In this document: in pieces, positions 32,081-63,810 of the stretch
How the letters are laid out: every line of letters begins with the position of its first letter
Numbering within the stretch: position 1 is the first letter of the stretch
Origin: Leucoraja erinacea
Lineage: Eukaryota
Assembly: GCF_028641065.1 (NCBI RefSeq)
Contig: NC_073384.1
Span: 29,698,001 to 29,762,000 of the forward strand
DNA length: 64,000 bases
Direction: 5' to 3'
Notes under the pieces: generated by a model
The model's input: only the letters and a program-made list of their open reading frames with translations
What the model was told of the DNA's origin: nothing
The model's database searches: none
Translations under genes and position numbers: made by a program

Positions 32081-32144
32081 CTACTGAACTGTGAATCTAC
32101 TGAACTGTGAATCTACTGAACTGTGAGTCTACTGAACTGTGTGT
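32081..32144. repeat. 16-bp tandem repeat x4 (CTACTGAACTGTGAAT)
   Basis: Read directly from the sequence. Confidence 0.9.
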
Positions 32145-32209
32145 CTACTCTTTATGTGCTTTATGTGGTTGATGTGGTTACGTAATTTATGTGGTTATGT
32201 GGTTAATCT

Positions 32210-32523: not shown

Positions 32524-32529
32524 GAAATG

Positions 32530-32960: not shown

Positions 32961-32969
32961 CACCCATGC

Positions 32970-34170
32970 TACCTCCTCCCCCCGCGCCCCCTCCCCCCTC
33001 TCACCGCACACCCCTCTACTGCACACACACCCCCCCCCCGCACACAATTCTCCCCCCGCACACACCCCCTCCCCCACAAAAATCTCCTCCCCCACACACA
33101 CCCCAATGCCGCACCGCCCTCTCCCTCCCCCCGCACGCCCTCTCCCTCCCCCGCACCCCTCTCCCTCCCCCGCACACCCTCTCCCGCACACACCCCCTTT
33201 CCCCCTCCCACACACCCCCCACACCCCCCCCACCCCCCCCCCCCCCCCCCCCCCCAGCCCCCCCCCCCCCCCCAATGCTCTGGATTGAAGCCGCTGAACA
33301 CGCAGTATTTTTGGTTGGGCTTCCGAAGTCTTCCCCCCCCCCCCCCCCTCTCTCCTCACACCCCTTCCCCCCCCCCCCCTCTCCCAATCCTCTCCCACTC
33401 CCCTCTCCCCCCAGTTCATCTCCCCTCATCCCCCTCTCTCCCCCTCTCTCTCCTCTACTCCCCCCCTCTCTCCCCTCTCTCCCCCCCCCTCTCTCCCCCC
33501 CCCCCCCTCCCCCCCCCTCCCCCCCCCCCTTTCTCCCTTTCTCCCCCTCTCTGCCCCCCTCTCCCTCTCTCCGCCCCCCTTCTCTCCCCTCCCTCTCTCT
33601 TCCTCCTCCCTTCCCTAGACCCCCCCCCCTCCCCTCCATCCCCCACCTCTCCCCCCCCCCATCTCTCCTCTCCCCCCATCTCTCTCCCCCTCCCATTCCC
33701 CCCCACCCCTCCCAACCCCTCCTCTCCCCCCTCTTCTGCCTCCCTCTCTCTCCCCCCTCTCCCCTACGCTCTCCCCCCCTCTTCGCCTCCCTCGACCCCT
33801 CCCGCCTCCCCCCCCCCCCTCCTCCTCCCCCCCCCTCTTCCTCCCCCCCCCTCCCCCCCCTCCCTTCCTCCCCCCCTCTCCTCCTTCCTCCCCCCCTCCT
33901 CCCTTCCCCCCCCCTCTCCTTCCTCCCCCCCTCTCCTTCCTCCCCCCCTCTCCTTCCTCCCCCCCCTCTCCTTCCTCCCCCCCCTCTCCTTCCTCCCCCC
34001 CCCCCTTCCTCCCCCCCCCTCCTTCCCCCCCCCCTCCTCCTCTCCCCCCCCCCCTCCCTCCCTTCCCCCCCCCCCTCCCTCCAACCCCCTCTCCCTTCCC
34101 CCACTCTCCCTCTCTCTCTCTCTCTGCTCTTCTGTCTCTACCCCCCTCTCTCTCTACCCCCCCCCCTCTC
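32970..34170. repeat. 1.2-kb C-rich polypyrimidine low-complexity tract
   Basis: Almost only C/T on +; source of the spurious Pro- and Gly-rich ORFs. Confidence 0.95.
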
Positions 34171-35476
34171 TGGATGCGCCTGCGAGGTGAGGGCTATACG
34201 TCAGTGGACAGGGCGGCGATGGGGTAAAAGAAGCCAATGAATAATATTGATTTAATATCAAGGGGGATGGTTAGAGTGTGTGGGAGGGGGGGTGGTTAGT
34301 GTGTGTGTGATGCCGCAGACCGCCCCCCCCCCCCCCCCCCAACCTCCGCAACCGCTCGTTGAGGGGACGGGTCCCAATGGGTCCCCCTTGGTCGAGTAAC
34401 CTCTAAATTCTTCCTATCTTATATCTGCCCAAATGTCTATGAAAAAAATCCCAAAAAATTACTTGTCAAGGGCATGTTTGTTAAATCCATGGACATTTAT
34501 AATTTATCAATTTTAGCAGTGTAAACATCACTTTTTAAGCTAATTTGACTGATCTGTTCAATGACTGCATCTTTGTAAAAATTAAATTTGTATTTCCTGG
34601 ATTGGTGTATCTGATGATTTTGCATGCAATTGTCTGCAGCCTCTGGGCTTCAACGTGGAAACTGATAACAATCCATCCATGACATTGTAAGAGGAACCCT
34701 CAGTACAATTTCTCAAGCAATCTCAGGTTGAGGTGAAGTAAATCTCTGAAAGATACATTTCAAGGCGAATAGATTCTGGCTGCACTGACTGTCAGCTAAC
34801 AAAATTATAATTCTTAATAACCTCAGGGTCTTCAGTGGGAACATGAGGTGCAGATGGTATAATACATTAGAAACAGGTTAATTGACTGCTACATACAGGG
34901 GAAATGATTCAGTGAATATGAATGAGGTTGTGATCCTAATAACATAAGAGATTAACTCACATAAAGATCTCTTGCAGTTCAGATGTGTACCTGGCATGGA
35001 GCCGATTCACGGGGTGCTACATATGCAGTGTGTATGAAGCAATGTTGACAGTCTGGCAACTAATGTATGCTGTCGTTATTACAGACAGGGCAATGAACAA
35101 GATCCATTCAGAGCACACACGGGCTGTGTATCTAGCACGGCAACCACTTACTATAACCACCTCTCACATACCATTTTTTCTAGACAGAACACATTATTTA
35201 TGAATCCCTTATCAGCACAGACTCCATGAAAAATGCTGGCTTCGTAACATGATCATATGTATAACACATTTAATGGTATTCAATGCATGTCCATCAAGAG
35301 TGATTAGGTTACTTTTTCAGTCTCTCTTTCACCAGTATGGCAGCTAAAGAACAGCCAAATGAATTACAGCCATATCTGTGACCTCAGCTTTTCCCGCAAG
35401 CCTACAGAGAAAAAAATGATTAATGCAGGCAAAATCAAACGGGGCAAATGTCCTGTGATTCTGAAGGGGTGACTTA

Positions 35477-35922
35477 CAGTGCCCTCCATAATATTTGGGA
35501 CAAAGACCCATCATTTATTTGTTTGCCTCTGCATTCCACAATTTGAGATTTGTAATAGAAAAAATCGCATGTGGTTAAAGTGCACATTGTCAGATTTTAA
35601 TAAAGGGTATTTTTATACATTTTGGTCTCACCGTGTCGAAATTACAGCAGTGTTTACACATAGTCCCCCCAATTCAGGGCACCATAAATTTTGGGACACA
35701 GCAATGTCATGTAAATGATAGTAGTTATGTTTAGTATTTTGTTGCATATCGTTTGCATGCAATGACTGCTTGAAGTCTGCGATTCATGGACATCTCCAGT
35801 TGCTGGGTGCTTTCTCTGGTGCTGCTCTGCCAGGCCTGTATTACAGCCATCTTTAGATGCTTGTTTTGGGGGTTAGTCCTTTCAGATTTCTCTTCAGCAT
35901 ATAAAAGGCACGCTCAATTAGG
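35477..35922. mobile_element. Tc1-like DNA transposon end fragment
   Basis: TA|CAGTGCCCTCCATAATATTTGGGACA terminus with an internal direct repeat (CACCATAAATTTTGGGACA ~35680), as in IR/DR Tc1 elements; truncated at H2. Confidence 0.75.
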
Positions 35923-35923
35923 G

Positions 35924-36355
35924 TCTAGTACATAACTAAAACTCTGATCTTGTTATCTTCCGGTTTGGTGGTCTTTCTATTTGCGCAAAAATGGTTTGCG
36001 ATAGCACTACGATTTTTTACCAGTTCACTTACCGTTCTCCTGTGCCAAGTTTCGTTCCGATCGGTTGAATGTCGTATAAGTTAGCGAGGTTTAAAAATCT
36101 TAAAAACCATGTGTGCACAGATCGATCTCTTCTCCTGCCAGTCGGCGCTGTGTGAATTAGTCTCTTCCCCGTCACTCCCTGGGATGGTCTGCCCCTTCCC
36201 GCATCATCGCATCTTTACTGGAGCTGAGGGTGGCTGGCGGAGATTTCCAACCGGAGTTTCGGAGGGACCCAAAGCAGACCCAAACCTCCCCCACAAACCA
36301 CTCCGCACTCACAACCCCCCCCCCCCCCCCCCCCTACAGGTCCTACTTGGTCTAG
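35924..36355 (+). mobile_element. Short non-autonomous Helitron-like element H2
   Basis: 5' (TC)TAGTACATAACTAAAACTCTGATCTTG; shared core AAGTTTCGTTCCGATC; 3' GGTCCTACTTGGTCTAG|T. Confidence 0.7.
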
Positions 36356-40010: not shown

Positions 40011-40114
40011 TATAGCGAAGACAAGTGTTGTGAAACAAAGTGATCTTTATTGTGTTATACAGAGAACAGCTCACACGCGACTGGGGAGGGTTCTCCCAGA
40101 GTTTGTTTGTTCGT

Positions 40115-40181
<67 letters not shown>

Positions 40182-43100
40182 CGTGACCCTGCCAGTCCTA
40201 GGGCCGAGGGTTCGCCCAATAAGTGGCCTAGCCACCAGGTGGAGCCACAGGACCCTCCCAGAACCAGAGGCACGAAAACGAAACAGCAGATGAATGAGGT
40301 GGCCAGGACCTCGTACACACATCCCCCCGCAAAAGGGATGCAACCAGTAAAAGCAAAATCGGAAGTGGCCAGGACCACGGACGCCCCCGACGAGGCTGGG
40401 CCATCTGGTTCAGTAATATCCAAATGGGCCAGCTTCAGGCGAGCCGCTGACGCAGTCTCACTCCGACCCCCATGTCCAAAACAAAAGTGGTAAATTCATG
40501 CTGCAGCACCCGGAAAGGACCCATGTATGGATGCTGCAGCGGCGACTGGTGAGCGTTGTGGTACAGGAACACATACAAACAGTCTTGGAGAGTAGGGGGA
40601 ACATGGAAACGAACCATCCCATGGCAAGACGTCGGGACAGGAGAGAGCATGCCCACCTTCTCCCACAAACGAACCATCACAGACGAGGGCGGCTCCTGCA
40701 ACCCACAGGCTGCCGGAATGAAATCCCCCGGAACCATAAGCAGAGTACCGTAAACCTATTCCGCAGAGGAAGAAGACAAATCCTTCTTTGGGGTAGTACG
40801 AATCCCCAGCAAAACCCATGGCAACTCGTCAATTCACTCCGGGCCCGTGAGCCGAACTTTCAGAGCGGCCTTGTGATGACGGTGGAACCGCTCCACCAAA
40901 CCGTTGGATTGGGGATGATAGGCCGTACTGTGATGGAGCTGGGCCCCCAAACGCTGGACACCAAAACGGGCGATCCAGTGGGCAGCGAAGGCTTTCCAAC
41001 ACCAAGCTGGAAATCGCAGTATGGTAGGCGAGAATCTCCCCATCCTCCAGCTGAGCAGCCACTAAGGCGGTATAGTTAATACCCGGGGCCACATCAAGGA
41101 CGGCACCGATGGCGGACCGAGACAATGCATCAGCGACCCGGTTACTTTTACCCTCGATGTGGCGGATGCTGGTAGTGAACTCCGAGATATACGCCAACTG
41201 ACGCTGTTGCCGAGAGGACCAGGGATCCGACACCTTCGCAAATGCAAAGGTGAGGGGCATGTGATTAGTAAAGGCAGTAAAATCCCGGCCCTTAACTGAA
41301 TGTCCCGCTGATTGCCGGCCAATAACTGAAACAACGGCCGCATAATCCGGGCCACCGTGGGCACGAACTGATGGTAAAAAAAATCGCCATACCCACGAAC
41401 TCCTGGAGCCCTTGCACCGTGAAAGGCAGCGGGAACTGGCAAATGGCCTCCACCTTATCCGGGAGCAGAACTGCACCGTGCAGAGCAAGAAAGTCCAGGC
41501 TGCGACCCACCCTGTCCATCAGGTGCTGGAAAACCTGCGCGGCGTTCTTCAGGCCAAAAGGCATACGGAGAAATGTTAATAGTCCAAAAGGAATGATGAT
41601 GGCCATCTTGGGCACGTCCTCTGGGCCCACAGGAATTTGATGATAACCCCATACCAGGTCGACCTTGGAAAAAAACTTGGCGCCGGCCAGATGGGCGGAA
41701 AAGTCCTGAATGTGTGGGATAGGATATCAATCCGCAGTCGTGGCATCATTCAGGCATCGGTAATCTCCACAAGGCCTCCAGCCCCCGGAGACATTGGGGT
41801 CCATGTGTAGCGGAGAGGCCCATAGGCTGTCAGAGCGCTGTACAATTCCCATGGCCTTCATATGGCGGAACTCCGCCTTGGCAATACAGAGCTTGTAGGG
41901 AGGAAGCCTGTGTGCACGTGCGTGGAGCAGAGGTCCTGAAGTGAGGATGTGATGTACCACTCCATGTTTGGGGCTGACCAAATGAAATTGGGGGGATCGG
42001 AATGTCGGGAAAGTCCGCCAATATCTGAGCATAAATATTGTTTACGGAAGTCACCGGATTACGGATACAGTGTGGTATAAGGAGATCTACTCAAACGTCG
42101 CAGCATGAATGAGTAGCTGCCCCCTCATCCACCAACAGGGATTGGGCCTGAAGCAAATCGGCGCCCAGCAACAACTGGGAGACGTCGGCAACTGTGAATG
42201 GCCAGGTAAAATGGCAGGAGCCAAAGATGAGCGGGACCGTATGGAGCTGCAATTTACTGCAGTTAAAGAGGGCCCCCATTTTCCGGAACGAGTGTCGACC
42301 CCCGATGGGGGCAAAACGTTAACCGTCGTCCCGAATGCCAGTCTCAAGCTTAGAGGCGGTGTATCTGGCTGACCGCCGCAGCGATTACTGGCGCCCGGCC
42401 CTGGCATTTCCTGGATACGAGCAGGGTGGGTGGCATTGACGGGCCGCGGAACCCCAGTGTTGATGATAGTAACACCACTTCCCTTTACCGGCTTCTCCAA
42501 GCGGCGCAGCCAAACTCTCGGTGGATACAGGGCCTTCCAAGGCACTGCCGACACCCAATCGAGCAAACCACCTTGTCCACATGCTCCGCCAGCTGCAGAG
42601 TGTCTTCAAAATTTTCACCCGCGAGAAGCAGGCGGATGTCGTCCGGCATCTGCTCCAGAAAGGCATGTTCAAACAGGAGACCATCAGAGTAAGCATTTCG
42701 CTCTTGAGCACCGACTGCTTGCGATCATCGAGACCGCCCATGTACATGAGGCGTGCTGCTCGATCCCGGCGGCTGAGCCCGAAGATACACAAGAGAAGCG
42801 CTTTGAGACCCTCGTACTTGTCCTCAGCCGGTGGTGTGCGTAGTTAAAGGACCAGGCGACCAGTCGTCTCCTGATCCAGTGCGCTGACCATATAATAGCA
42901 CCGAGTGTCATCAGCCGTGATGCAGCGAATGTGGAACTGGGCCTCGGCCTGCTGAAACCATACTTGGGGCTGCGATGTCCATAATACGGGCAGCGTAAGA
43001 GCGACAGCATTCTGCTGGGCCGGATCGACCGCAACTTCGGGTTAGGCGTTGGCTGCATCCATTATTCAAATCTAAAATAACTGTTTTGGATCGTCGGGGT

Positions 43101-43329
43101 CACCAATATAGCGAGACACGTGTTGTGAAACAAAGTGATCTTTATTGTGTTATACAGAGAACAGTTCACAAGCCTCTGGGGAGGGTTCTCTCAGAGTTCT
43201 ATTTTTTTTTAAGGGCACACCCCTAAGCCACGTAACGACTTCTTCCCGCCAAACCTGGTCACGTGAACCTGCCAGTCCTAGGGCCGAAGGTTCACCCAAT
43301 AAGTGGCCTAACCACCAGGTGGAGCCACA
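40011..43329 (-). mobile_element. Decayed Gypsy/Ty3 LTR retrotransposon (gag-PR-RT-RH-IN, frameshifted, internally deleted)
   Basis: LTRs 40011-40249 and 43107-43329; PBS TGGTGACCCCGACG (tRNA-Trp) at 43092-43105. Motifs WASPLHM, WRPCGDYR.LN, RMPFGLKNA, FTNH.PL and AYHPQSNGLVERFH. TSD GAAC/AAAC inside a LINE tail. Confidence 0.93.
40115..40181. repeat. (TCTA)n microsatellite inside the 3' LTR
   Basis: Read directly; absent from the other LTR. Confidence 0.95.
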
Positions 43330-46041: not shown

Positions 46042-46945
46042 TGGGTAGTTTACACGGGGCGACTTGACGCAAGATGTAGCCAGAATGGAGTGGTCGTGGT
46101 CTAGCACGATATCACACGATATAATGGGAGGGTAGACCAAGAGTTCCCACGGTACTCGGCAATTCTGTCATTTGTGCGAGTGACTTGTCCGTCTCCCGAT
46201 CTTTCCCGAATGAACATCGTGGACTGTAGTGTAGTTAATCACGTGGCACAAATGATGTTACTTTGTTGTCACACACTCTATTCGTTTTTTTCACCCGAGC
46301 TCTTTAATGAGCTGAAGAATAATCTGTTTTTTTAGACAAATGTTGTTTGGTGTGATGCACCTTCTCTCAATATGTGCAAGAAGTCGTCTTTTTATTTTGT
46401 CAAATATGAATAAAGACTGTATCTCACATTGACCGTGATTATTGTGTTATTTTATGATCTACTGAGAGGTGAAACTTTCAGTCTGAAGAAACTTTCAGCC
46501 CGAAACGCCACCCGTTCCTTCTCTCCAGAGATGTTGCCTGTCCCGCTGAGTTGCTCCAAGCAACTGGTGTCTATCTTCAAAGGANNNNNNNNNNNNNNNN
46601 NNNNNNNNNNNNNNNNNNNNNNNNNNNNNNNNNNNNNNNNNNNNNNNNNNNNNNNNNNNNNNNNNNNNNNNNNNNNNNNNNNNNNNNNNNNNNNNNNNNN
46701 NNNNNNNNNNNNNNNNNNNNNNNNNNNNNNNNNNNNNNNNNNNNNNNNNNNNNNNNNNNNNNNNNNNNNTCGCTCTCCCTCGCTCTCTCTCTCCGGGACA
46801 GAGAGAGAGAGAGGGGGGGGCTCGCTCTCTCTCTCTCTCTGGACAGAGAGAGAGAGAGAGCGAAGTGGGGGATAGAGAGGGGAAGACTGTAGATGCTGCC
46901 TGGCCCGCTGAGGGAAGGAGGGGGCGAGAGGGAGGGAGAGGGAGG

Positions 46946-46994
<49 letters not shown>

Positions 46995-47840
46995 TCCTGG
47001 TCAGTCCTTTGAAGATAGACACCAGTTGCTTGGAGCAACTCAGCGGGACAGGCAGCATCTCTGGAGAGAAGGAACGGGTGGCGTTTCGGGTCGAGAGCCT
47101 TCTTCACACTCTCCCTCCCTCACTCTCACACAGGCATGAATGGAGGAACTCCGCGGGCCAGGCAGCATTTACGTTCCTTCTCTCCAGAGATGCGGCCCGT
47201 CCCGCTGAGTTGCTCCAAGCAACTGGTGTCTATCTTCAAAGGACTGACCAGGACTGCCTCGCTCTCTCTCTCTCTCTCGTCTGTCCATTTCTCTCTGTAG
47301 ATGCTGCCTGGCCCGCGGAGTTCATCCATTCACGCCTGTGTGGGAGGGAGAGAGAGAGAGAGGGAGAGACGCACACACAAGGTGGATGCGAAATCTTACC
47401 TGCCTGTTTCAGTGACAGACACCCACCGCCAGTAAATGAAGACACCCCCATCTTTCAGACAAAAAGAGACACACTGACATTAATGAAATGCTTAGCTAGT
47501 TTTATTAGATTTGTATGTAAATAGCAAACTGGCTGGATTCACTCTATCCAACTTCCGGGTTCACCGTTGGCAGGAGTTCCCACGGTGACCGCAAGAGTTA
47601 CTACCGATATCGCACGGGACACTTCGTTCATAAAATGTTGCAATGCTTAACCACAAGTGCGCAAGACACTCTTGGACAAATTCAAACATGTTTGAATTTT
47701 CTCCCGAGTACCCAAGGTACACGATTAACTGCCGTTAGCGCCACGGTGGTCCACGAATGCCGTATTGTTACCGCACGAGGTTCCCACGATGTCAAACTCT
47801 GGTTACCTCTTGCGTCAAGTCGCACCGTGAAAAGGGGGTT
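46042..47840. mobile_element. PIF/Harbinger-type non-autonomous element inserted in a Penelope terminal repeat
   Basis: TIR core CACGG(G/T)GCGACTTGACGCAAGA.GTA.CCAGA; TAA duplication; removal restores GCTGGAGTAACTCAGCGGG. Confidence 0.8.
46585..46769. other. Assembly gap (185 N)
   Basis: N run between inverted, GA-rich repeats. Confidence 1.
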
Positions 47841-48835
47841 TAACTCAGCGGGCAGACAGCATTTCGGAAGAACATGAACAGGTGACGTTTTGGGTCAGGA
47901 CCCTTCTGCAGACTCTTGCATCTGAAAGAAGGGTCCGGACCTAAAATATCACCTATCCATGTTCTCTAGAGATGCTGCCTGACCCCCTGAGTACTCCAGC
48001 ACTTTGTGACTTTTTTTACATGGATTTATATACTACTTTACATCTTCCTATCTGGAGGTCCCATAAGAGCTCATGGCCTATTTTTGAAATGTTGTCACTT
48101 TAGCAAAGTACAAACACAGCAGCCACTTTATGAATCAACACTCACAGATACCAAAGAGATAATGGCCAGATGATCTGTTTTAGCATGGTTGGGTAAGTAT
48201 AATACTGGCCGGGAATCCAGCAATGGCTTCCCTACTCATCTTCACCTGAGGTTGTAGATTGTCTCACTTTACCATATCATTCAAAATATGGCACTTCCAA
48301 CCGTGCAGCACTCCATCAGAACTGCAGTGGGATATCGGTCTTGATCTTTGTCTCTTTGGAACTGGATTTGAATCGCCAACCTTATGATAGACCCAAGACT
48401 GACAGATCCGCAGCAATCATTTTTGCAATGTTTAACATTCCTGAAATAACATGATAAGACCATATCTGATTATAAAGACAATATTTTTGCCTTGTTGTCT
48501 AAAACTGCTAATCCCACTGATTCAGCAACCTGAAAGCCCAGGAAGGAAGATTACAAGACCTGGTAAACACTGCCTGGTCCAACAGATTTCGGCCTTCCCA
48601 CCATCGCAGGGATTTATAAGAGGTGTTGTCTCAAAAAGGCAGTCAGCTTCATCAAGACCCTATACCAATCTGGGCATACTTTCTTTTCACTCCTGCAATC
48701 AGGAGTCTGAAAACTACAGCGTCCAGGAACAACTTCCTCCATCAACACTGTGGACTGTGAGTACTGTGCTCACAAACCTGTTTTGCTGCTTCTGTACATA
48801 AGAATTTCAATGTTTCGCTTTGGTATATCTATATA

Positions 48836-51047
48836 TCTATTTACATACTAAAAGTCTCATCTGGTGTCCGTGTGAGCGTGTGTGTGCTTGTATGTTTTGT
48901 ATCTTCCTTAAAATGCTATGCGCTAGTGTTTAAATATTTACATGTTCTAACTAACATTTTTCGCGCCCACGCCGTACTCAGGTTCACTTAAGATTTCATC
49001 TTATATTTCACAAGTTATTCATGATTAAAGTTTTTTTTAAAGCCCAAAATTGCTTCACACAGAGAGCCTTTTTCCAGCAGCTTCCAGTGATGATGTCACA
49101 AAGCCATCAAACAGGCGTCCAATCACAATGGATCTCATTTACAAATAACATCACAATGGGACGTTGCCAACGGTAACCGCAGCTTCTCACAGAGAGCCTT
49201 TTTCGAGCAGCTTCCAGTGATGATGTCACAATGCCACTCACAGTGCACCAATCACAATGGACTATCAGGCGGCCGAGTGCCACCACCCCCCCCCCCCCCC
49301 CCCCCCCTCCCCCCGGGTTATTCATGTTTTAAAAAGTTTCAAAAAAAAGCCAAAACAACCTTTTAAAACACCAGCTTCCAGTGACGTCACAATGCCCCCC
49401 CCACCCCAATGGTAGACGTCAGGGGGAGGGCCACATTTCAAAAACAGCTTAATCAGCTCCCCAACGGTCACTTCTGCACTGCTTGAGGTTGACTCAACAT
49501 CAACTTCTGCAACGCTTGATTCTAACTGCTTCATTTTCGTCATCTTTAAAGATAAGATTTATTTTAAAACACCTCGTGGTGTAAAAAAAAAGATCAACCT
49601 TGCTTTTATTCACTTTCTCGGCGCCGCTCGCTCGGGCTCCCCCGCACAGTCGGCTCGGGTTTGCTCCTGGGCCTAGCCAAGATGCCCATTCGCAGATCCA
49701 GGCAGCGGACAGTCGATGGTCACACCAGAGTCGGTTGCCTGCCCCTCTTCCGGGCCTACATCCGTGCTCGCATTTTCTTGGAGAAGGAACACGCGGTGTC
49801 CACGGGGACACTGGAGGCCTTCCGTAAACGCTGGTTGTCGTGGGGGAGGAGAATGGTGTGTGCTGCCATCAAGGGAGAGAGGGAGGGAGAGGGAGAGTGA
49901 GAGAGAGTGAGAGGGATTGAGAGAAAGAGTACCCGCAACCCCCCTACATGTCGAGTCCACATTGCCCTTACCCCCCCCCCCCCCCCCAGCCTCCGCCACC
50001 CCCCTCCTGACAGCCCCCCCCCCCCCCCACACCCCTCCCCCCCCTCGGGTTAGGGTTCTGGTAACTCTGCCAAATCGGTACATGATAGCGATACAATTAT
50101 TGGCTCACCTTACTCACCATTGTCCTCGCCAAAGTTTTGTTCAGATTGATGGTATATATTACAAGTTATTGACATTTACAAAAAACACTTTTCAAAGCAC
50201 TTGCCCTGCCCGTCAGCCGCATCACTATGATGTCACAATGGGATCACGAATCTCATTTACATAAAAAAATTGCTTTAAAAAAAAAAATCAGTTTTATTCA
50301 ATTTCTTCCACACATTCATTCACAATGATGTCACAATGGGATCCCGATACTCGTTTAAATTTTTTTTTAAATTGCGATTTTCAAAAAAACTCAGTTTTAA
50401 TCAAATTCTTGTTGGGGAGGTTTCATTTACAAAAAATCATAGCAATTTTCATTGTAGGGGAGAGGTTTCATTTTTTTTTAAAACGCGATTTTCATTGTGG
50501 GGGGGGGGGATAGGGGGAGGTGAGGAATGGGGGGGGGGTGGGGGGGATAGAGGGAGAGGTGGGGGGGAGTGTGGAGGTAGGGAGTAGGGGACGGGGGATA
50601 GAGGAAGAGGTGGGGGGGAGTGTGGAGGTAGGGAGTGGGGATAGAGAGAGAGGGGGGCAGTGGGGGAGGTGAGGAGGGAGAGTGGGGGAGTGGGATATAG
50701 GGGGGAGGTGAAGAGTGGGGAAGGTGGGAGATAGATTATGAATGGAGGGAATTACTGAATGTAGGGGGAAGGAGAGGTGAGGGGGGAGGGGAGGAGGAGA
50801 GGCGAAAGAAGAGGGAGGTTGAAGAGGAGGGGGAGGTAGTGCTGGGGTTGAGGGGGGATGGAGGATAGGGGTAGGAAGAGGGATGGCGATGCGTAGTTGA
50901 TGGTGGGTTGCTGTGACTCACATCACAACGGAAATCTCTGGTATCACAACGGGAACCCAACAGCTGCACCTGCGCAGTTGGGGGCTATGGGTGAGTGGTG
51001 GAATGTTGCGTTGGGGAATGGGGCCAAACGGGTCCCACTTGGTCTAG
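48836..51047 (+). mobile_element. Non-autonomous Helitron-like element H3 (nested)
   Basis: A|TCTATTTACATACTAAAAGTCTCATC ... GGGGCCAAACGGGTCCCACTTGGTCTAG|T; no TSD. Confidence 0.82.
49661..49845 (+). pseudogene. Tx1/L1-clade ORF2 C-terminal fragment carried inside H3
   Basis: LLGLAKMPIRRSR...CLPLFRAYIRARIFLEKEHA..TGTLEAFRKRW resembles the Tx1 ORF2 end as recalled. Confidence 0.7.
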
Positions 51048-51560
51048 TATATTACTAAAACTCTCATCTTGTTTGTTTGTATGCGTGCGTGATCCCGAAA
51101 CTACGCCAAAACAGCATGATAGTGCTACAATTACAATACAATAGTGCTTCCACCTTACTCACCACATCTTGTCCTGTGATGTGCTGTTGCAAGTTTCATT
51201 CAGATTGATGGTATAATTTACAAGTTATTCACATTTTAAACTTTACAAAAACCACTTTTACAAAAATCACTTTTGCACTTGCACTGCCCGTTACCCGCGT
51301 ACAACGTCACAATGATATCACAATGGGATCCCGAATAGAATTTACATAAACAAAAAAAAACGTTTTAATCAAATTCTTGGGGGGAGGTTTCATTGAATAA
51401 AACATCGTGATTTTCATTGAGGGAGGGTGGGATAGCGGGGAGGTGAGGAGTGGGGGAGCAGGGGGATAGAGGGAGATGAGGGGGATAGGGAGGGGAGTGG
51501 AGTTATGGAAGGAGGGTGGGAGTGACTGAGGCTCTCCGTGCGTGCGGTTTTAAAAATAAC

Positions 51561-51900
51561 CAGGGTTGCCAACTGTCACGCTTTGAGTGTGAGAATAACG
51601 CATTTTGACAAATTCTCACGCCCTCACGCTGATCACTAATTTCTCACGCTCTGGCATGAGAAATTCTGTGATCAATGAAAATTTCAAACCTCATAAACTG
51701 CATGGGCCGCTGGTGTTGGAGAGCCGGAGCTGATGCAGCGGCGGGAACAGATATGGGGAGCCGGGGCTGGCGAGTGTTTGCGGGGCTGGCGAGTCGCTCG
51801 CTGCAGCTCCAGCCATGGAGCAGCCCCATTGCAAGTGTCCCGGGCCTTCGGAGGCGTTGCGCGGCTGCCGTGAGTCTCTGTGCCGAAGGGACAGAGACTC
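51561..51900. mobile_element. hAT-type left end (CAGGGTTGCCAAC) with TCACGC subterminal repeats
   Basis: Terminal motif plus repeated CTCACGC; matching right end not found. Confidence 0.55.
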
Positions 51901-51904
51901 TCAA

Positions 51905-52498
51905 AGGGAGGGGGAGAGACAGAGGGGAAGGAGACAGGTAAGACAGTGGGGGGAGAGAGAGAGGGGTTGAGACAGAGGGGAAGAGGATGGGGAGAGAGAG
52001 AGAGGTGAGGGAGAGAGAGAGGGGAGGGGAGGGGGGAGAGAGAAGAGGAGAAAGGGGGAAGAGAGAGAGAGGGGGAGAGAGGGGGAGAAAGAGAGAGGGG
52101 GAGAAAGGAAGAGAGATAGGGAGTGGAGGGAGGAGAGAGGGGGGAGAGGGAGGGGGAGAGAGAGGTGGAAGGGAGAGAGGGGGGAAAGAGAGAAACGGGG
52201 GAAAGAGGGAGAGACGGGGGCAAAGAGAAAGAGGAGATAGAGAAAGAGAGGGGAGAGAGAAGGTAGAGAGAGCAAGGGGGAGAGTGAGGTGGGAGGGAGA
52301 AATGGGGGAGAGATGGGGGGGGAGAGGAGGAGAGAGAGTGGAGAGGGTAGAGGGGGAGAGAGAGAGAGAGACTGGGGAGAAAGGGGAGATAGAGAAGGAG
52401 GGAGAAAGAGAGCGGGGGTAAGAGGAGAGAGAGGGGGAGGGAGAGTTTGGGGAAAGAGAGGGGAGAGAAAGTTAGTGGAAAGAGAGAGGGAGAGAGAG
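51905..52498. repeat. ~600-bp G/A polypurine tract
   Basis: Read directly; a further G-rich tract at 50500-50880. Confidence 0.95.
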
Positions 52499-52909
52499 TA
52501 ATTAGCCTGATTTGTAATTAGTTGACAAAACCTTAATTTATTAATCTGGAATATCCAGAGGGACGGGATAAGTGTAATATTAAAATGACATGCAAGGTGT
52601 CAGGCTGTCTGTCACAACATATAGCCCCGATAACCCATTATTTCCTTCAGTTAAATATTGGGAAGGTAGCACTATTGTCATTTGCCACTCAACTATTATG
52701 TTAGCTTACCTCACTGATTATTTCTAAACTCCCCCCCCCCCACCCCCAATTCCTTTGACAGGTTGAATAGAAATATCCCCAATCTCGTTGTTTTATTAAT
52801 TGAACACGTAGATGAACATCCTCAAGGAGTGTAATCAGATGGAAACTGATTCAGATGCGATATTTAAGAGCTTGTTCAAAGAAGGGGAACATTTTAAAGG
52901 AGTGACAGA

Positions 52910-54445
52910 CAGGGCCGGCCCTAGGCCGATTGGACCGATTTTTCCAAATTGGGTCCCGTGTTAATTTTCCGTATTTCATATGGAAATACAAATTTGCTTT
53001 GTTAAATAAAGATTTTTAAAAAAACATTCGCCATACGGATTTTTTTACAAGACTTACATGGTTTTGTACATGGAATACAAGCGCTGTACGGCTATCAGAC
53101 ACAAACAATGTGTTAACGACCGTAGCACTTGTGTTGACAAGTAGTTATCCAATGCGTCATCAATGCATGGATCCCCATTCCTCAGTAAATGTGTAATTGT
53201 GTTTTAGAGGAAGTATTAATGCACTGCGTTCTGGAAGGGGAAGAGTCCTGGCCCGTGGCGGCTCCTGATTAGTGATATGTTCCCTCCGCGGGTGCTGCCT
53301 TGCCCGCTGAGTTTCTCCAGCATTCTGTGTTTTTTGTTTGGCTCTGAAGTTGAAGGTGGACCCCCCTGTGTCTACTTTCAACTCCCTGTCTGTGGTGGCT
53401 CAGCGGGACGGTCAGGGGCTCTGGGGAGAGGGGTGCGTTTCTGGTCGAGACCCTTCTTCAGACAATCACAAGTACTCTCACCGACGAGAGTTCAGTTCAG
53501 TCTGAAGAAGGGTCTTCTCTCCAGAGTCGCTGCGCTGCCTGTCCTGCTGAGCTACTCCAGCTTTTGTCTATCTTCAATTTCAGAGTTAGATAAAATTGCA
53601 GACTTGATTTTAAAAATCTCAAAATTTTGTAACATTGCTAGAAAATGTACCTGCATCTTAGAGGCCGAAGGTTAGGTTGTTAGCCAAGAAGGATAGACTT
53701 TGTTATCCCTCAGTACAGCAACATCAAAATGATGTTGCTGTACTGAGGTATAGCCAAGTCTATCCCTCATTGCTAGCAGCTGATGGGAAGCGGCTGTAAA
53801 GTGATTGCATTCAGGCCCCGCCACAGCTGCCGAACACCTGTCTCATCCTCCAGTTTCGAGCAGAAGTCCCTTTTGACCTTTTTGATGGCCTTACCAAGGT
53901 CGTATCTGGACTTCATGTAGGCCACTGTATCCATGTGTCAGTGCGAGTAACCTCAATTGATCCCTTGTTCGCGGTGACACAGGAGTAAGCTCCAACGCCC
54001 GCCGTGATATTATCTATCACCCGCTGACCCACTCCACTCTATGATCTTCCTCTTGAGCTGGTCTCCTCACTATTCAGACGGAGAGCACTGCCAGCGGTGA
54101 GCGGGCTGGCAGAAGGCGCTGAGATGGCAGTCAGTTCCGCTGGCCGGTGATGGAGGCCGCTCGTAGCCACACGAGCTGCTTCCCTCCCCGACAACAATGT
54201 GGTGGCGCCCGGAGCGCCGTGGCAGCGGTGAGTGAGTGTTACTGGCATGAACCCGACCCCCTCCTTCTCAATGCTCATTCCCTGCTCGCAACTTTACCCC
54301 TGGCTAGACTCCCCACACGCTGTGAAAGGAACTCTCACCCGAATTGTCATGTTACTCACGACACACGACTCATTTATAATTATTTATTTATATTTCTACT
54401 AAAATTTTTCCCAATTGGGCCCCGCACCTCCTAAGGCCGGCCCTG
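52910..54445. mobile_element. Non-autonomous hAT element with perfect 8-bp TSD
   Basis: TIR CAGGGCCGGCC(C/T)TAGG; TSD GTGACAGA at 52902-52909 and 54446-54453. Carries Penelope repeat pieces (53290-53580) and a Rex1-like fragment (minus, KSRYDLGKAIKK...LWRGL, ~53805-53915). Confidence 0.92.
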
Positions 54446-55799
54446 GTGACAGAGATATTTGCAGGGGAATGTGTGAGGAGATTATTATTTGTCTTTAGTT
54501 TTAGCTTGAACCAGGACATTTGAAGATTCAAAGTTTAATATAGTAATTGTACGGATACTGACCCCAACCAACCACGTGATGAATATCATCCATTCTGGAG
54601 GTTTGACTTTTATGATGCCATTTAAACTTCACTTGGATTTCAATCACTTCAATGTAAAAGTAATTGGGAATGGGGAGCATTGGAACAAAAAATTGACCTC
54701 GGTACATATTAAATGTAATATAATAATGTATGCATGTTGGTAGGTGCAATCAAAACAAAGATCTTTTTATCATTGTTGTATTATGAATACCACAGAAAAT
54801 ATTATGTATTTTCAAGATCACATTTAATAGAATAATATTGCTTAAATATATAGTTATTGGACTTTGTATTTCAGAAAAATCCCAGCTGAGAGGAAGACAG
54901 CAAAATACTGAAACTATTGGGGGTGAAAATGACTTCAGGACAGTTTGTTAGGAAAATGAAAGAAATGGTAATGGAATACTTATACAGCTGAGTGAGTATA
55001 ATTTTATGGATGATAAATTGTGTTCAACCAATTGATTACTTATTTGACAAAGTAACTAGCATGTTAGATAACAAGGAAGCCAATGGATGTAGCAAATTTT
55101 GTTATAGATAATTTGGTCTGTGAAGTGCCCCATAAAAGATTACTGCATTAGATAAGAACCTGTGGACTTGAACGTAATAGGTTAAGTCCAGGGGATCAGA
55201 TATGGGGCTTTATGTGAGGTCCAGATATATTGTCAGTGCAGAGGGGCTAGGAGCAAGGCCAAGTGTGCATCCAGAGTCAAGGTCTGGAATAGTCACCCCG
55301 CGCGTGCTGGATTTGGCGTGCGGCTGCTCCGTGCCCACGGGGAGGTAGAAGAGAGCAACCTGGGGCAAGGACTAGGCCTCGGCATCGGCCTTCCCCTCCC
55401 CCAGCTCCAGGCCGCTCGGCGCCTCCCCCCCACCCCCGATAGCCCCCGCCTCAGTGTGGAATTTTGCCATGGGGGACGGGCCCAACAGGTCCGCACTTGG
55501 TCTAGTATAACAATAAAATTCTCTTGACTTGCCTTTACGCCCGACCTCAAGCACGGCCGAAGATAGACATACATAAGCTGGAGTATCTCAGCAGGACAGG
55601 CAGCATCTTTGGAGCGAGGGAATGGGTGACGTTTTGGGTCGAGATGCTTCTCCAGATAGAGAGTTCCTGGGAGAGGTAAACTAGAAATATGGAAGGGTAA
55701 GGCATGAAAAGGACAGATCAAAGCAGATGCTGTTCAAGGAAATGTAGAATGGTTCATTGTTGGCTGAGGGGAAGGTAACAACGAGTCATACAAACAGTA

Positions 55800-57252
55800 G
55801 AGTCAGTCATAGAGTGATACAATGTGGAAACAGACCCTTCAGCCCAACTTGCCCACACCGGCCAACATGTCCCAGCTGCACTAGTCTCACATGCCTGCGT
55901 TTGGTCCATATCCCTCCAAACCTGTCCTATCCATGTACCTATCTGTTTCTTAAACGTTGGGATAATCCCAGCCTCAACTACCTCCTCTGGCAGCTTGTTC
56001 CATACACCCACCACCCTTTGTGTGAAAAGGTTACCCCTCGGATTCCTATTAAATCTTTTCCCCTTTACCTTGATCCTATCTCCTCTGATCCTCGATTCCC
56101 CTACTCTGGGCAAGAGATTCTCAAAGTCAAAGTATCCTTTATTGTCATTCAGACCTTTCGGTCTGAACAAAATTTTGTGCCTTGCAGTCATACATATAAT
56201 AAAAATAACAAAAGCACACAATAAGCACAAATTTAACATCCACCACAGTGAGTTCACCAGGCACCTCCTCACTGTGATGGAAGGCAAAAGTCTTAAAGTC
56301 TTTGTCTCTTCCTCCCTTGTTCTGCTTCTGCGCTGAGGCGATCCAGGCCTCCGATGTTGTGACCCCGCCGGGTGATGGTAAGTAAGTCAGTCCCGCGGCT
56401 GCATCCGAGCTCCGCGAACGGGCCGGTTCAAACTCCGCCGCACGGGGAGCGGTCAAAGCTGCCGAAGCTGCCGCCCGCCAGTCCAGCGGAGGAAGCTGTT
56501 GTTGCGGGAGCTACGGAAAAACAGGTCACCAACCTGTGACCTGCGAGCACCCGACGATGTCGTCCACTGGGCCCGCGGCCGAGCCTCCAAAGTTGGGCTG
56601 CCGCCGCTGGAACGCTGCCCCAGCCCCGACGCCGCCGGAACGCCGCCACAGCTCCAAAGTCGGGTCGCCACCACCGGAACGCCGGAAATCCGCCACAGCT
56701 CCGAAGTCGGGCCGCCGGAACGCCGCCATTGCTCCGAAGTCGGGTCCGCCGCGGGAACGCCGCCACAGTCCCGAGGCCGCCAGCTCCACCATTAGGCCTC
56801 GACGGAGACGGGGGACACGACAAGAAAAAGTTGCATCCCCCCCCGAAGGAAGAGACTAAAACCATGTTTCTCCCACCCATACACAACCTAATAAACTAAA
56901 TTTAACTAAAACAGACAAAATAAAACAACACCAAAAAGAAAAAACAGACGGACTGCAGACGAGCCACAGCTGCCAGGCAGCGCCGCCACTTCCGGTCTAT
57001 TCTGTCCATCTACCTGATTTATTCCTCTCATGATTTTATACACCTCTATAAGATAACCCCTCATCCTCCTGCGTTCCATGGAATAGAGACCCAGCCTACT
57101 CAACCTCTCCCTATAGCTCACACTCCCTATAGCTCACACTCCCTATAGCTCACACCCTCTAATCCTGGTACCATCCTCCAAAATCTTCTCTGAACCCTTT
57201 CAAGTTTGACAATATCTTTCCTATAACATGGTGCCCAGAACTGACCACAATA
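55800..57252 (-). mobile_element. CR1 3' fragment split by a GC-rich non-autonomous element (56122-56998)
   Basis: Matches 5980-6466 in reverse. The insert is flanked by ATTCT, starts (minus) ACCGGAAGTGGCGGCG, has ~33-bp internal repeats and ends AATAAAGGATACTTTGACTTTG. Confidence 0.85.
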
Positions 57253-57384
57253 ATAAAATTAATTAGGACAGTGAAACTAGTAGGAGAACTAGGATGGGGG
57301 AGGGACTGAGAGAGGGAAAGCAAAGGTTACTTGAAGTTAGAGAAATCAACATTCATACTGCTGGGTTGTCAGCAGCCCAAGAAA

Positions 57385-58025
57385 GACCGGGCAGTTGTCG
57401 AGGTCACGTGGGCAGAGTGGTTGTTCGGGAACGCGCATCCACCGCAACCCCCGCCCCCTCCCTCGCGATCCATGCGGACGGAGTGATGTCACGGGGCATG
57501 GGGCGTGAACGCAACGCTGGCACGTCGGCAGTTGGCATGCATGCGCGCGCGCGCGCGCGCTCCCGCCGCTGGGGGACGGACGGACTGACGGAGCGAGCGA
57601 CGGGAGGTCCGATTGCCGCGGCCATGGCGGCTCCCTTGGCGCAGTTCGACGAGGATTGGCAGGATTTCTACGAGTTCAAGGCGCCCTCTGGCAATTTCAA
57701 ACTGGACCAGGTAAACTCCAACGGTGTCCCGGCTCCGGCCGGCGTCCCCGGAACGCTGGAGCAGAGCCTGGAAGATTTCGCCGAGCTTGACAACTTCTCC
57801 GCCGAGATAGTCAGCTTCAAATCGATGGAGGATCTGGTCAATGACTTCGACGAGAAGCTAACCGTGTGCTTCCGCAACTACAACACCAACACGGAAAACA
57901 TTGCTCCGGTCAAACCCATCTCCGAAGAGAGCATAATGAGAGACGACGAGTGAGTGCGGGGCGGGGATCGCGAAAGGGTCCGGGTCCGGGAATGTGTGTC
58001 GGGGCGGGGGAGGTTCTCGGTGATC
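57385..58025 (+). promoter_or_regulatory. FEZ2: CpG island / FEZ2 promoter and exon 1
   Basis: High CpG density; E-box GTCACGTG at 57403, GC box ~57448, (GC)n run 57535-57560, Kozak GCCATGG. Confidence 0.8.
57624..57949 (+). CDS. FEZ2: Fasciculation and elongation protein zeta (UNC-76 family), first coding exon
   Basis: MAAPLAQFDEDWQDFYEF...KSMEDLVNDFDEKLTVCFRNY...PISEESIMRDDE; Kozak ATG at 57624; phase-2 GTGAGT donor at 57950. DWQDFYEF and linkage to SULT6B1 favour FEZ2 over FEZ1. Confidence 0.88.
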
Positions 58026-59639
58026 CGTTGTTGCATCCATCCAGTGAATCTGCATTGATGCAAACTTTGTCCTCGACACTTTGTGGTCCTGTCTTTCAGT
58101 GCAACATCACCGGTGGACTATAGGTCCATGCTTGAAATGTCAGTTTCCCTTCTGCAGATCTTTTCCATGTGATGAGAGAATGTTTAATTATAATAATTCA
58201 CTTTTCAAGCAGGTCAGTATGTTTTGCAGAATACATACTTCTCATCGGAACATGAAACTTTTTATGCAAGGTCATTTGCTGCCTACAATGTGAAAAAAGA
58301 ACATTGATCATACTGGATTTGTTATGGGCTTACATGATATGTCATATTGGCAGAAACATAGAAACAAACGTAGAGGGATACAGTACAGAAACAGGCCCTT
58401 CGGCCCACTGAGTGTATCATCCATCCATTTACACTAATCCAACATTAATCCATAAAACATTTTTATATTGTCCCCTCATACTAATCGATTCACCACAAAT
58501 TCTACCATTCACTTAGACACTAGGAGCCACTTGACAATGGTCAAGTGACGGACTAATCTTTGCAGTGTGGCAGGAAACTGGAGCAACCAGATGCATCCCA
58601 CAGTCATCGGTGTCTAGCTGCAGAATATAAATCTATGATATACACAAAATGCTGGAGTAACTCAGCGGAACAGGAAGCATCTCTGGAGAGAAGGAATGGG
58701 TGGCGTTTCGGGCAGAGACCCTTCTTCAGATGGGTGCGAACATTGTTTCCTCATAGAACTGTAGACGTGGTGCTGCATAGAGATCATCTGGGTGGGTAGC
58801 TAGCCCAGATAAATTATTGTAAGAAAAATAAAAACAAAGTGTTGGAAATATTCAGATATTCAAATATTCAACAAAATATTCAACCTCTATAAAGGGAAGT
58901 AGTGGTAAGATTTCAGGTCAATGACTGTTCATCAGAACTCACCTGAGTATTTCCAGTCATTTCTGTCTTTATTAAACATTTTCATCTTTTTGTTTCATTC
59001 AGTATGCCAAATTCTGTTTGTAAGAAATCCTTTGAGATTCTATGCAATAATGTTTACAATGAATTGTATATTGGAACCAATCTTCGCTTCCGTTATTTTT
59101 AATATTTTAAAATCATATTTTTTTTGTTCATCTTTATCTTTGCTGTTGTAGAGATGTGAATAACATTCTGTGCATGTCATAGCTTACATTTTTCTAAATT
59201 ACTCAATCCATGTCTTTCATTAGTAAAGATGCAAATATGGTAACCGATTTATACAGTCAGAGTGAGGTATTGAATGAGTTTCATTGATTTTAGAAACATA
59301 GAAAATAGGTGCAGGAGTAGGCCATTCGGCCCTTCGAGCCTGCACCGCCATTCAATATGATCATGGCTGAACATTTTCAAACCATATTGTGAGTTACCTC
59401 TTTACTAAGTTCTCAAGTACAACACTTTGTTCCTGTTTTGACCCTGCTCATTTTTCTTAGCACCAAATACTGCTTAAATAATTCAGTAAAGGTGGTTTGC
59501 TTGTTCTGCCTTATTTAAGTAAGTTCCGGCAAGGTAGTAGTACAAGTTCAGTGCACAAATTACACATTTAAGAGAAATCTATCCGGTAGTCGTGTTAATG
59601 TGATTAGTGGTACCAAAGTCAGTTAAGGGTCAATGTGGA

Positions 59640-62096: not shown

Positions 62097-63810
62097 ATAG
62101 ACAATAGGTGCAGGAGTAGGCCATTCGGCCCTTCGAGCCAGCACTGCCATTCAATGTGATCATGGCTGATCATTCCCAATCAGTACCCCGTTCCTGCCTT
62201 CTCCCCATATCCCTTGACTCCGCTATTTTTAAGAGCCCTATCTAGCTCTCTCTTGAAAGCATCCAGAGAACCTGTCTCCACCGCCCACTGAGGCAGAGAA
62301 TTCCTCGTCTCAGTTCCAAATGGCTTACTCCTTATTCTTAAACTGTGGCCCCTGGTTCTGGTCTCCCCCAACATCGGGAACATGTTTCCTACCTCTAGCG
62401 TGTCCAAACCCTTAACAATCTTAAATGTTTCAATGAGGTATCCTCTCATCCTTCTAAACTCCAGAGTGTAAAAGCCCAGCTGCTCCATTCTCTCAGCATA
62501 TGACAGTCCCGCCATCCCGGGAATTAACCTTGTAAACCTACGCTGCACTCCCTCAATAGCAAAAATGTCCTTCCTCAAATTAGGGGACCAAAACTGCACA
62601 GATTACTACAGGTGTGGACTCACTAGGGCTCTGTACAACTGCAGAAGGACTTATTTGCTCCTATATTCTATTCCTCTTGTTATAAAGGCCAACATGCCAT
62701 TCGCTTTCTTCACTGCCTGCTGTACCTGCATGCTTACTTTCATAGACTGATGTACAAGGATCCCCAGATCCCATTGTACTTCCCCTTTTCCCAACTTGAC
62801 GCCATTTAGATAGTAATCAACCTTCCTGTTTTTGCTACCAAAGTGGATAACCTCACATTTATCTGCATTAAACTTCATCTGCCATGCATCTGCCCACTCC
62901 CCCAACCTGTCCAAGTCACCTTGCATTCTCATAGCATCCTCCTCCCAGTTCACACTGCCACCCAGCTTTCTGTCATCTACAAATTTGCTAATGTTACTTT
63001 GAATCCCTTCATCCAAATCATTGATGTATATTGTAAATAGCTGCGGTCCCAGCACCGAGCCTTGCGGTACCCCACTAGTCACTGCCTGCCATTCTGAAAG
63101 GGACCCGTTAATCCCTACTCTTTGTTTCTTGTCTGCCAACCACTTCTCTATCCATGTCAGCACTCTACCCCCAATACCATGTGCCCTAACTTTGCCCACT
63201 AATCTCCTATGTGGGACCTTATCAAATGATTTCTGAAAGTCCAGGTACACTACATCCACTGGCTCTCCATTGTCCATTTTCCTAGTTACACCTTCAAAAA
63301 ATTCCAGAAGATTAGTTGAGCATGATTTCCCCTTCGTAAAGCCATGCTGACTCGAAACGATCCTGTTACTGCTATCCAAATTTTTGGCTATCTCATCTTT
63401 TATAATTGACTCCAGCATCTTCCTCACCACCGATGTCAGGATAACTGGTCTATAGTTCCCTGTTTTCATCTCCCGCCTTTCTCAAAACGTGGGATAACAT
63501 TAGCTATCCTCCAATCCACAGGAACAGATCCTTAGTCTATAGAACATTGGAAATTATCACCAATACATCCACGATTTCTAGAGCCACTTCCTTAAGTACC
63601 CTGGGATGCAGACCATCAGGCCCTGGGGATTTATCAGCCTTCAGTCCCATCAGTCTATCCAACACCATTTCCTGCCTAATGTGGATTTACTTCAGTTCCT
63701 CTGTCACCACAGATCCTCTAGCCACTACTATATCAGGAAGATTGTTTGTGTCCTCCTTAGTGAAGAACCGATCCAAAGTACCTGTTCAGACAGATCCAAA
63801 GTACCTGTTC
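62097..63810 (-). mobile_element. 5'-truncated CR1 LINE (RT domain + 3' end) inserted into a Penelope element (61943-62096 and 63811-64000)
   Basis: NYRPV.LTS, QHGF, DFQK.FDKV, GVPQGSVLGP, FVDD. The flanks rejoin to match the uninterrupted copy at 28385-28640. Confidence 0.95.

What the first reader, a model, noticed from the sequence alone, without database searches (positions are those of the whole stretch)
48828..55505. 6.7-kb nested Helitron-like composite carrying captured DNA, 2 kb upstream of FEZ2
Seen: a LINE tail is split at an A^T dinucleotide with no TSD (48827|55506). The rejoined sequence matches the tail of the minus-strand LINE around 39905-40010/43330-43360. The insert starts TC and ends hairpin + CTAG. 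A second element (48836-51047) sits at an AT inside the first 8 bp of the outer one, giving a CTAG|TATATTACTAAAAC junction. Between the outer ends lie a hAT left end, a complete hAT, a decayed CR1 piece and apparently unique AT-rich DNA. Established: TC...hairpin-CTRR, AT targets and host-DNA capture define Helitrons. Inference: a self-targeting rolling-circle family that moved several kb of foreign DNA next to a promoter.
Basis: partly seen in the sequence, partly recalled or inferred. Interest (0 to 1): 0.75.

Follow-up and report, generated by a model that had tools for sequence, protein, structure and literature searches.

The report
Helitron nest filled with common repeats
A rolling-circle jumping element (Helitron-type ends) sits in the tail of an older retrotransposon 2 kb before a FEZ-family gene, but what it encloses is not captured unique host DNA: it is a pile of other very common repeats that likely accumulated one insertion at a time, an ordinary arrangement except for a hint that these elements prefer to land on sequence resembling their own start.

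Summary
The boundaries are real. A LINE tail is split at A^T (48827|55506), the 6,678-bp block has TC and hairpin-CTAG ends, a second Helitron-type element is nested in its first 8 bp, and an inner hAT has an 8-bp duplication. Contigs bridge both outer junctions. The capture claim fails as written. The 'unique' DNA has 1,400-7,000 times single-copy depth in 4 of 4 runs. Other copies lack the inner hAT and run on past 55293 into shared sequence that is not this Helitron arm. So the interior is a right-truncated copy of an abundant, likely hAT-type repeat, and no second copy of the composite was seen. Best reading: a non-autonomous Helitron nest built stepwise (0.55). Rival: end-bypass transposition as one unit (0.3). 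The empty orthologue was not seen. One lead remains: the outer target matches the family's own 5' start at 15/22, reached by 0-1 of 9,772 other AT sites. The scan noted this family and head-to-tail stacking before on other DNA of this genome (e1-9976099, e1-9183853).

The parts
48560..48827 (+). Decayed LINE 3' part; left half of the target site, ending in A
   Evidence: Aligns to minus-strand LINE 43930-43330, score 75 vs shuffle max 41; single-copy depth and contigs crossing into the insert in X1, X15, X3
48828..48835 (+). Outer 5' stub, TC plus three TA units
   Evidence: Sequence; bridged by contigs in 3 of 4 runs
48836..51047 (+). Element A: non-autonomous Helitron-type element, itself chimeric (one 5' arm, a LINE fragment, GA/C tracts, then a body 70-78% like arm B), 3' hairpin 51019-51037 and CTAG
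   Evidence: a contig joint 51091->50070 in X3 (depth 871) links a B-type start directly to the 50070 body in other copies
49643..49880 (+). LINE ORF2 C-terminal fragment inside element A (L1/Tx1-like label recalled)
   Evidence: 80-aa open frame, 81% identical to P0001, E 2.5e-23; P0001 has only a sub-threshold zf-RVT hit, E 0.035
51048..51560 (+). Helitron B 5' arm (family start lacking TC after the junction); low copy
   Evidence: 22/24 match to the 31743 start; depth at 51294 only 7-12 times single copy; 51560|51561 bridged by one X15 contig
51561..55293 (+). Interior: right-truncated copy of a high-copy repeat with a hAT-like left end, GA tract, AT-rich DNA and an old CR1 piece. Linkage across the GA tract and the exact left edge are inferred.
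   Evidence: Depth 1,400-7,000 times single copy in 4 of 4 runs; falls to 0-1 at 55300-55319 while 12-21 contigs per run continue with one shared other sequence
52910..54445 (.). Inner non-autonomous hAT-type element, 16-bp TIRs, 8-bp TSD; inserted after the interior repeat spread
   Evidence: joint 52901->54446 (element absent) in 2, 2, 3 and 8 contigs of the four runs
54990..55145 (+). Decayed, frameshifted CR1-type reverse-transcriptase fragment, part of the high-copy interior
   Evidence: no Pfam hit of its own
55294..55505 (+). Helitron B 3' arm, hairpin 55477-55493, CTAG end
   Evidence: terminus high copy with unrelated flanks behind 55506 (agreement 0.45-0.47), arm of moderate copy; 55505|55506 bridged by an X15 contig
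55506..55531 (+). Right half of the LINE tail (target, starting with T); also 15/22 like the Helitron's own 5' start
57624..57950 (+). First coding exon of a FEZ-family gene in a CpG island (neighbour, not part of the insert)
   Evidence: PF07763 E 1.5e-14; CpG o/e 1.16

Best explanation
The block is a nest of non-coding mobile elements bounded by Helitron-type ends in a split LINE tail, likely assembled stepwise rather than moved as one cargo-bearing unit. Shown: the ends, the A^T target, the nesting, the high copy number of the interior, its truncation at 55293, and the late arrival of the inner hAT. Inferred order: (1) a small non-autonomous Helitron (B) was joined by a RepHel transposase acting in trans into the A^T of a LINE tail; (2) an abundant, probably hAT-type repeat, which already carried old AT-rich and CR1 DNA in all its copies, inserted into B, and a deletion then removed its right end, its target duplication and part of B; (3) a second hAT inserted into that repeat, leaving an 8-bp duplication; (4) Helitron A, already a chimera, inserted into the TA run at B's 5' start. 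The order of steps 2-3 relative to step 4 is unknown. The left junction is shared by three organisms, so steps 1 and 4 predate their split.
For: Interior depth is 1,400-7,000 times the flank in 4 of 4 runs, while the B arms beside it are 7-12 times (51294) and 0-3 times (55354) at 88% likeness. In 4 of 4 runs (one shared) the interior family continues past 55293 with one shared sequence (21, 16, 12, 20 contigs; agreement 0.81-0.95), and depth on 55300-55319 is 0-1, so the join to the 3' arm is not a family feature. The left join falls exactly on a TIR-like motif, as a transposase-made end would. The inner hAT is absent from other copies. A second family member (31743-34396) splits a SINE at A^T without TSD. 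Adjacent and consecutive Helitron insertions are described in maize (PMC2267711, passages) and bats (PMC4778049 section 12).
Against: No clear TSD flanks the interior: many 8-mer near-matches arise in a GCGTGC micro-repeat, and no TIR pairing was found, so step 2 needs an extra deletion. The interior's left edge is only bracketed between 51294 and 51801 by depth. B's two arms were not shown to come from one family. The empty orthologous site was not seen. A donor copy could have been lost or be hidden, since summed contig depth is no copy number and listed pieces are a small subset. The rejoined outer start has five TA units against two in the 31743 copy, so step 4 needs an expanded TA run.
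Confidence: 0.55

Rival explanations
1. End-bypass composite transposition: at a donor site a Helitron 5' arm read through a truncated repeat to the 3' end of a second Helitron, and the chimera (51048-55505, with or without A) was copied once into this LINE tail. This keeps the first reader's 'moved as a unit', but the cargo is repeat DNA, not unique host DNA.
For: Clean A^T outer junctions around the whole block; no TSD around the interior; the arms of B look unrelated in sequence; element A is itself a chimera, so the family does shuffle arms; the mechanism is documented for HelibatN539 (PMC4224331 section 15) and Helraiser (PMC4778049 passages).
Against: No donor or second copy seen: both internal joins show about single-copy depth or none. 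The donor would still need the same truncation at 55293, which is not an A^T site in the family sequence.
Confidence: 0.3
2. Gap-filling (template switch): a break inside resident Helitron B was repaired by copying from an ectopic copy of the interior repeat, with no hAT transposition.
For: [quoted passage not shown]
Against: The left join sits exactly on a TIR-like motif; no microhomology was shown at either join.
Confidence: 0.1
3. One reading: a Helitron captured several kb of unique host DNA from one donor locus.
For: The AT-rich DNA and decayed CR1 look like old genomic DNA and have no match elsewhere in the window.
Against: Thousands-fold depth and many 87-93% alike contigs in all 7 runs laid. 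Any capture of host DNA happened earlier and belongs to the interior family, not to this Helitron.
Confidence: 0.03
4. Assembly artefact joining unrelated repeats.
For: Low-complexity tracts; N gaps 2 kb upstream; no listed contig spans the block; 51047|51048 is not bridged by a listed piece, and 55293|55294 has only 19 letters on one side.
Against: Contigs bridge the left junction (3 of 4 runs), 51560|51561 (1 of 4) and the right junction (1 of 4); the two LINE-tail halves are in register.
Confidence: 0.02

Closest known systems
Non-autonomous HLE1 / canonical Helitrons (definition in PMC11417382 and PMC4778049; passages)
   Same: 5' TC, 3' short hairpin plus CTAG, insertion between A and T, no TSD, no terminal inverted repeats, no coding capacity, AT-rich 3' flanks.
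   Different: No RepHel partner identified here; hairpins weak; two in-window head-to-tail junctions lack the TC that precise rolling-circle junctions keep.
Adjacent head-to-tail Helitrons of maize r1 (PMC2267711, passages) and abutting Helibat copies (PMC4778049 section 12)
   Same: Unlike Helitrons lying end to start through consecutive insertions.
   Different: In maize the TC of the second element follows CTAG directly; here the newcomer sits 8 bp inside the older start.
HelibatN539 compound Helitron (PMC4224331 section 15)
   Same: 5' arm and 3' arm of Helitron type around several kinds of foreign DNA.
   Different: There a parental host region with both ends was found; here no donor was seen and the enclosed DNA is a high-copy repeat, not host gene sequence.
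Multicopy Pack-TIRs, e.g. Pack-hAT-N8_XT (PMC8277862, passages)
   Same: Possible analogue for the interior: a TIR-type element that amplified a stretch of older DNA.
   Different: The interior's right end, TSDs and parental locus were not seen; its depth suggests thousands of copies rather than three; the cargo is non-genic.

Membership tests
HLE1 (canonical Helitron), non-autonomous | 5' TC terminus | tested here: met
   48828 and 48836; also 31743
HLE1 (canonical Helitron), non-autonomous | 3' CTRR terminus that is a true family boundary | tested here: met
   CTAG at 51047 and 55505; contigs of other copies diverge behind 55506 with agreement 0.45-0.47 in 2 of 4 runs' listed rows
HLE1 (canonical Helitron), non-autonomous | Short hairpin 10-15 nt before the 3' end | tested here: inconclusive
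   6-7 bp stems at the right place in both ends, but energy no better than shuffles
HLE1 (canonical Helitron), non-autonomous | Insertion between A and T without TSD | tested here: met
   Split LINE tail (within 1-2 nt) and split SINE at 31742|34397, both by paralogous comparison; orthologous empty site not seen
HLE1 (canonical Helitron), non-autonomous | Ends shared with an autonomous RepHel-encoding element | not testable with these tools
   No genome held; no RepHel-sized frame in the block
Helitron with captured unique host DNA | Internal DNA traceable to a single- or low-copy parental locus | tested here: not met
   1,400-7,000 times single-copy depth
Helitron with captured unique host DNA | Composite present at a second site (moved as a unit) | tested here: inconclusive
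   Internal joins at about single-copy depth or uncovered; a hole in contigs proves nothing
hAT, inner element 52910-54445 | Short TIRs and 8-bp TSD (hallmark recalled) | tested here: met
   15/16 TIR, exact 8-bp duplication; empty form in other copies
hAT, inner element 52910-54445 | hAT transposase or autonomous partner | not tested
   No long ORF
hAT, interior element from 51561 | Paired TIRs and 8-bp TSD | tested here: inconclusive
   Only a left TIR-like motif (label recalled); copy is cut at 55293, so the right end is missing; no pairing found
Rolling-circle tandem array | Near-identical units with precise CTAG-TC junctions | tested here: not met
   A and B are 70-82% alike in patches and the junction lacks TC

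The most novel reading that the evidence does not exclude
This Helitron family picks targets by resemblance to its own 5' start: it joins its 3' end to a T followed by about 20 nt that mimic the left terminal sequence. That would explain both the stacking of new copies into the first bases of old ones and repeated landing at one spot in the tail of an abundant LINE that happens to mimic the start. Support: three of five in-window 3' junctions are followed by a start or a start-like sequence (19-20/22, 19/22, 15/22), against 0-1 of 9,772 other AT sites at 15/22, 20 and 16 contigs fit through 55518 and 15 through 55529 before diverging. Against: two in-window 3' flanks score only 6-9/22, and those contigs were not shown to carry the Helitron end.
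Probability: 0.3. Interest if true: 0.55.

Novelty: new member of a known kind. Interest (0 to 1): 0.24.

Why it matters
As it stands, little: nested Helitrons and transposon pile-ups are known, and the capture of unique DNA that gave the finding its interest is not there. It adds one more locus to an abundant Helitron family that the scan has met many times in this genome, and points to an undescribed (by my searches) high-copy repeat carrying fossil CR1 DNA. If the target-mimicry lead holds, it would extend the known Helitron rule (AT dinucleotide, AT-rich 3' flank) to sequence recognition of a start-like motif, which is directly testable by counting flanks genome-wide and would bear on how the transposase engages target DNA.

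Tried and rejected
Whole-genome search: no genome held. Pattern scans of viral contigs for the junction and the hAT-like end found nothing. The one metagenome hit (L001) shares only the 20-nt pattern and was rejected as chance. Look-alike searches of earlier findings by relatives and by sequence gave nothing. An 8-bp TSD at 51538-45 / 55300-07, and reading 55291-55301 as the right TIR of the interior, were considered and dropped: similar near-matches are many in that micro-repeat and other copies run on past 55293. Empty orthologue: X17's contig stops fitting at 48617 and gives no cover at 55354 or 55554; none of X1, X7, X10, X18 covers 55540-55556; holes in contigs prove nothing, so this is no evidence either way. 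Pfam on the three frames of the CR1 piece: 0 of 3 hits. Rfam over 47000-58200: none. No coding gene in the block among 39 stop-to-stop frames of 70 aa or more, judged by eye; only one was searched. Expression and any effect on the FEZ gene were not examined.
Full report
Observation. The coordinates are right. The block 48828-55505 (6,678 bp) starts TC after an A and ends CTAG before a T. The flanks are two halves of one LINE tail. The left flank aligns with the minus-strand LINE at 43930-43330 (score 75, 200 shuffles maximum 41), and the 26 nt from 55506 are the best match in the window to that LINE's terminal tail (21/26; next best 18 among 127,948 positions). Landmark spacing is 32 nt in the rejoined site against about 31 in the in-window copy, which is itself interrupted by an LTR element and a second insert, so there is no room for a real TSD but a TA slip is possible. 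A second element, A (48836-51047), sits at an A^T 8 bp inside the outer start. The same end motifs occur twice more in the window, at 31743-34396 and 35922-36355. The first of these splits a SINE at A^T with no duplication, an independent check of the family's target rule. Both 3' ends of the block carry a 6-7 bp stem 10-12 nt before the end, but neither folds better than shuffles. The inner element 52910-54445 has 15/16 TIRs and an exact 8-bp duplication. The CR1 piece is real but decayed (no Pfam hit of its own). The neighbour is a FEZ-family exon 2,119 bp downstream; I did not test FEZ2 against FEZ1.

What the interior is. No genome was held, so I used public contigs: 21 runs were listed and 7 of them, one for each of 7 coded organisms, were laid. 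Against a single-copy flank depth of 22, 37, 51 and 78, the supposedly unique DNA shows 1,459-4,504 times (52466-52797), 3,666-6,190 times (54458-54789) and 3,195-6,992 times (54790-55121) in 4 of 4 runs. The tool warns that summed depth is no copy number; I use it only as an order-of-magnitude contrast. Listed pieces are about 87-93% alike. A joint from 52901 to 54446 in 2, 2, 3 and 8 contigs shows other copies without the inner hAT, so the two AT-rich stretches are one sequence and the hAT came later. At 20-bp resolution the depth falls from tens or hundreds of thousands to 0-1 at 55300-55319, and in 4 of 4 runs 12-21 contigs continue past 55293 with one shared sequence (agreement 0.81-0.95). 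The family therefore runs on, and this copy is cut. The Helitron arms on either side are far rarer (7-12 times at 51294; 0-3 times at 55354 at 88% likeness; a few hundred to 2,500 depth units at 82%). The interior is thus a right-truncated copy of an abundant repeat that is not generally tied to these arms. Its left end is probably the TIR-like motif at 51561 (hAT label recalled), but depth brackets that edge only between 51294 and 51801, and linkage across the GA tract is inferred.

Element A is also a chimera. It holds an 80-codon LINE ORF2 fragment (81% to P0001; P0001 has a sub-threshold zf-RVT hit; the L1/Tx1 label is recalled). Its second half (50063-50565) is 70-78% like arm B, and an X3 joint links a B-type start straight to position 50070 in other copies.

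Assembly and age. Contigs bridge the left junction in X1 (0 differences over 769 nt), X15 and X3; the 51560|51561 join and the right junction are bridged in X15 only. 51047|51048 is not bridged by a listed piece, and 55293|55294 has only 19 letters on one side. The insertion is shared by at least three organisms. The empty orthologue was not seen.

Mechanism. Most likely (0.55) the nest was built stepwise: a small Helitron entered the LINE tail; the abundant repeat inserted into it and lost its right end by deletion; a hAT entered that repeat; Helitron A entered the TA run at the older start. The ends, targets, copy contrasts, truncation and late hAT are shown. The order, the deletion and the action of a RepHel transposase in trans are inferred. 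The main rival (0.3) is end-bypass transposition of a ready-made chimera, as for HelibatN539 (PMC4224331, section 15 read; read-through in PMC4778049, passages). It fits the clean outer junctions and the missing TSD, but no donor or second copy appeared. Gap-filling (0.1; PMC8277862 passages) fits the one-sided cut but not the join on a TIR-like motif. Unique-host capture (0.03) and artefact (0.02) are contradicted above.

Self-targeting. Two in-window junctions place CTAG directly on a family start that lacks only its TC (51047|51048 and 35928|35929), unlike precise rolling-circle junctions (PMC5876387 passages) or the maize pair (PMC2267711 passages). The outer target matches the start at 15/22, reached by 1 and 0 of 9,772 other AT sites for the two reference starts. 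In one search, 20 and 16 contigs fit through 55518 and 15 through 55529, the latter continuing like the LINE tail; I could not show that they carry the Helitron end. Against mimicry, the flanks after 34396 and 36355 score 6-9/22, and Helraiser's known taste for AT-rich 3' flanks (PMC4778049 passages) may explain part of the resemblance. I give true mimicry 0.3.

Comparison and novelty. The ends meet the HLE1 definition (PMC11417382, PMC13286980; passages) except for weak hairpins and an untested RepHel partner. Membership in 'Helitron with captured unique host DNA' fails. Searches for Helitron with skate/cartilaginous (1 paper) and with elasmobranch (9 papers) were seen as listings only; none of the titles or abstract openings names such a family, and repeat libraries such as Repbase or Dfam were not available, so the family may already be catalogued. 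Searches (listings) showed no title on targets that mimic the left end; supplements were not read. Earlier notes of this scan describe the same family and head-to-tail stacking elsewhere in this genome; they are leads, not support. Verdict: new member of a known kind, interest 0.24.

Noticed in passing
window 31743-34396: Another Helitron-family member (2.65 kb) with a canonical A^TC start and a variant CGAG end, splitting a SINE at A^T with no TSD; carries internal tandem repeats and a long C-rich tract.
   Followed up: partly
window 35922-36355: Short family member whose start lacks TC and is preceded by a 7-nt remnant of a 3' end, the same junction type as 51047|51048; left and right flanks do not look contiguous.
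   Followed up: partly
window 40012-43329 (minus): Decayed LTR retrotransposon-like element with two LTRs inserted in the tail of the minus-strand LINE; a further small insert interrupts the same tail near 39990-39947. Observed only.
   Followed up: no
window 53800-54300 (minus): The inner hAT carries a stretch that translates like a LINE ORF2 fragment (label recalled, not searched), SINE/MITE-like pieces (53280-53575) and a 101-bp palindrome (53678-53778); this cargo is also high-depth (about 5,000-8,000 times at 53794-54125), so the hAT may be a cargo-bearing family.
   Followed up: partly
window 51561-55293: The interior repeat is itself an abundant family in all 7 organisms laid, carrying fossil CR1 DNA; its right part is unknown beyond about 30 nt. 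Worth its own reconstruction.
   Followed up: partly
window 46770-47380: Near-perfect inverted repeats (77 nt at 97%, 69 nt at 87%) right beside an N gap (46585-46769); possibly an assembly fold-back.
   Followed up: no
table 5c, places 55509 to 55488: Contigs in X7 and X10 show a 3' end followed by a short start-like piece and then another 3' end, i.e. miniature stacked junctions in other copies.
   Followed up: no
window 62900-63400 (minus): Well-preserved CR1-type reverse transcriptase frame (RVT_1, E 4.6e-19).
   Followed up: partly
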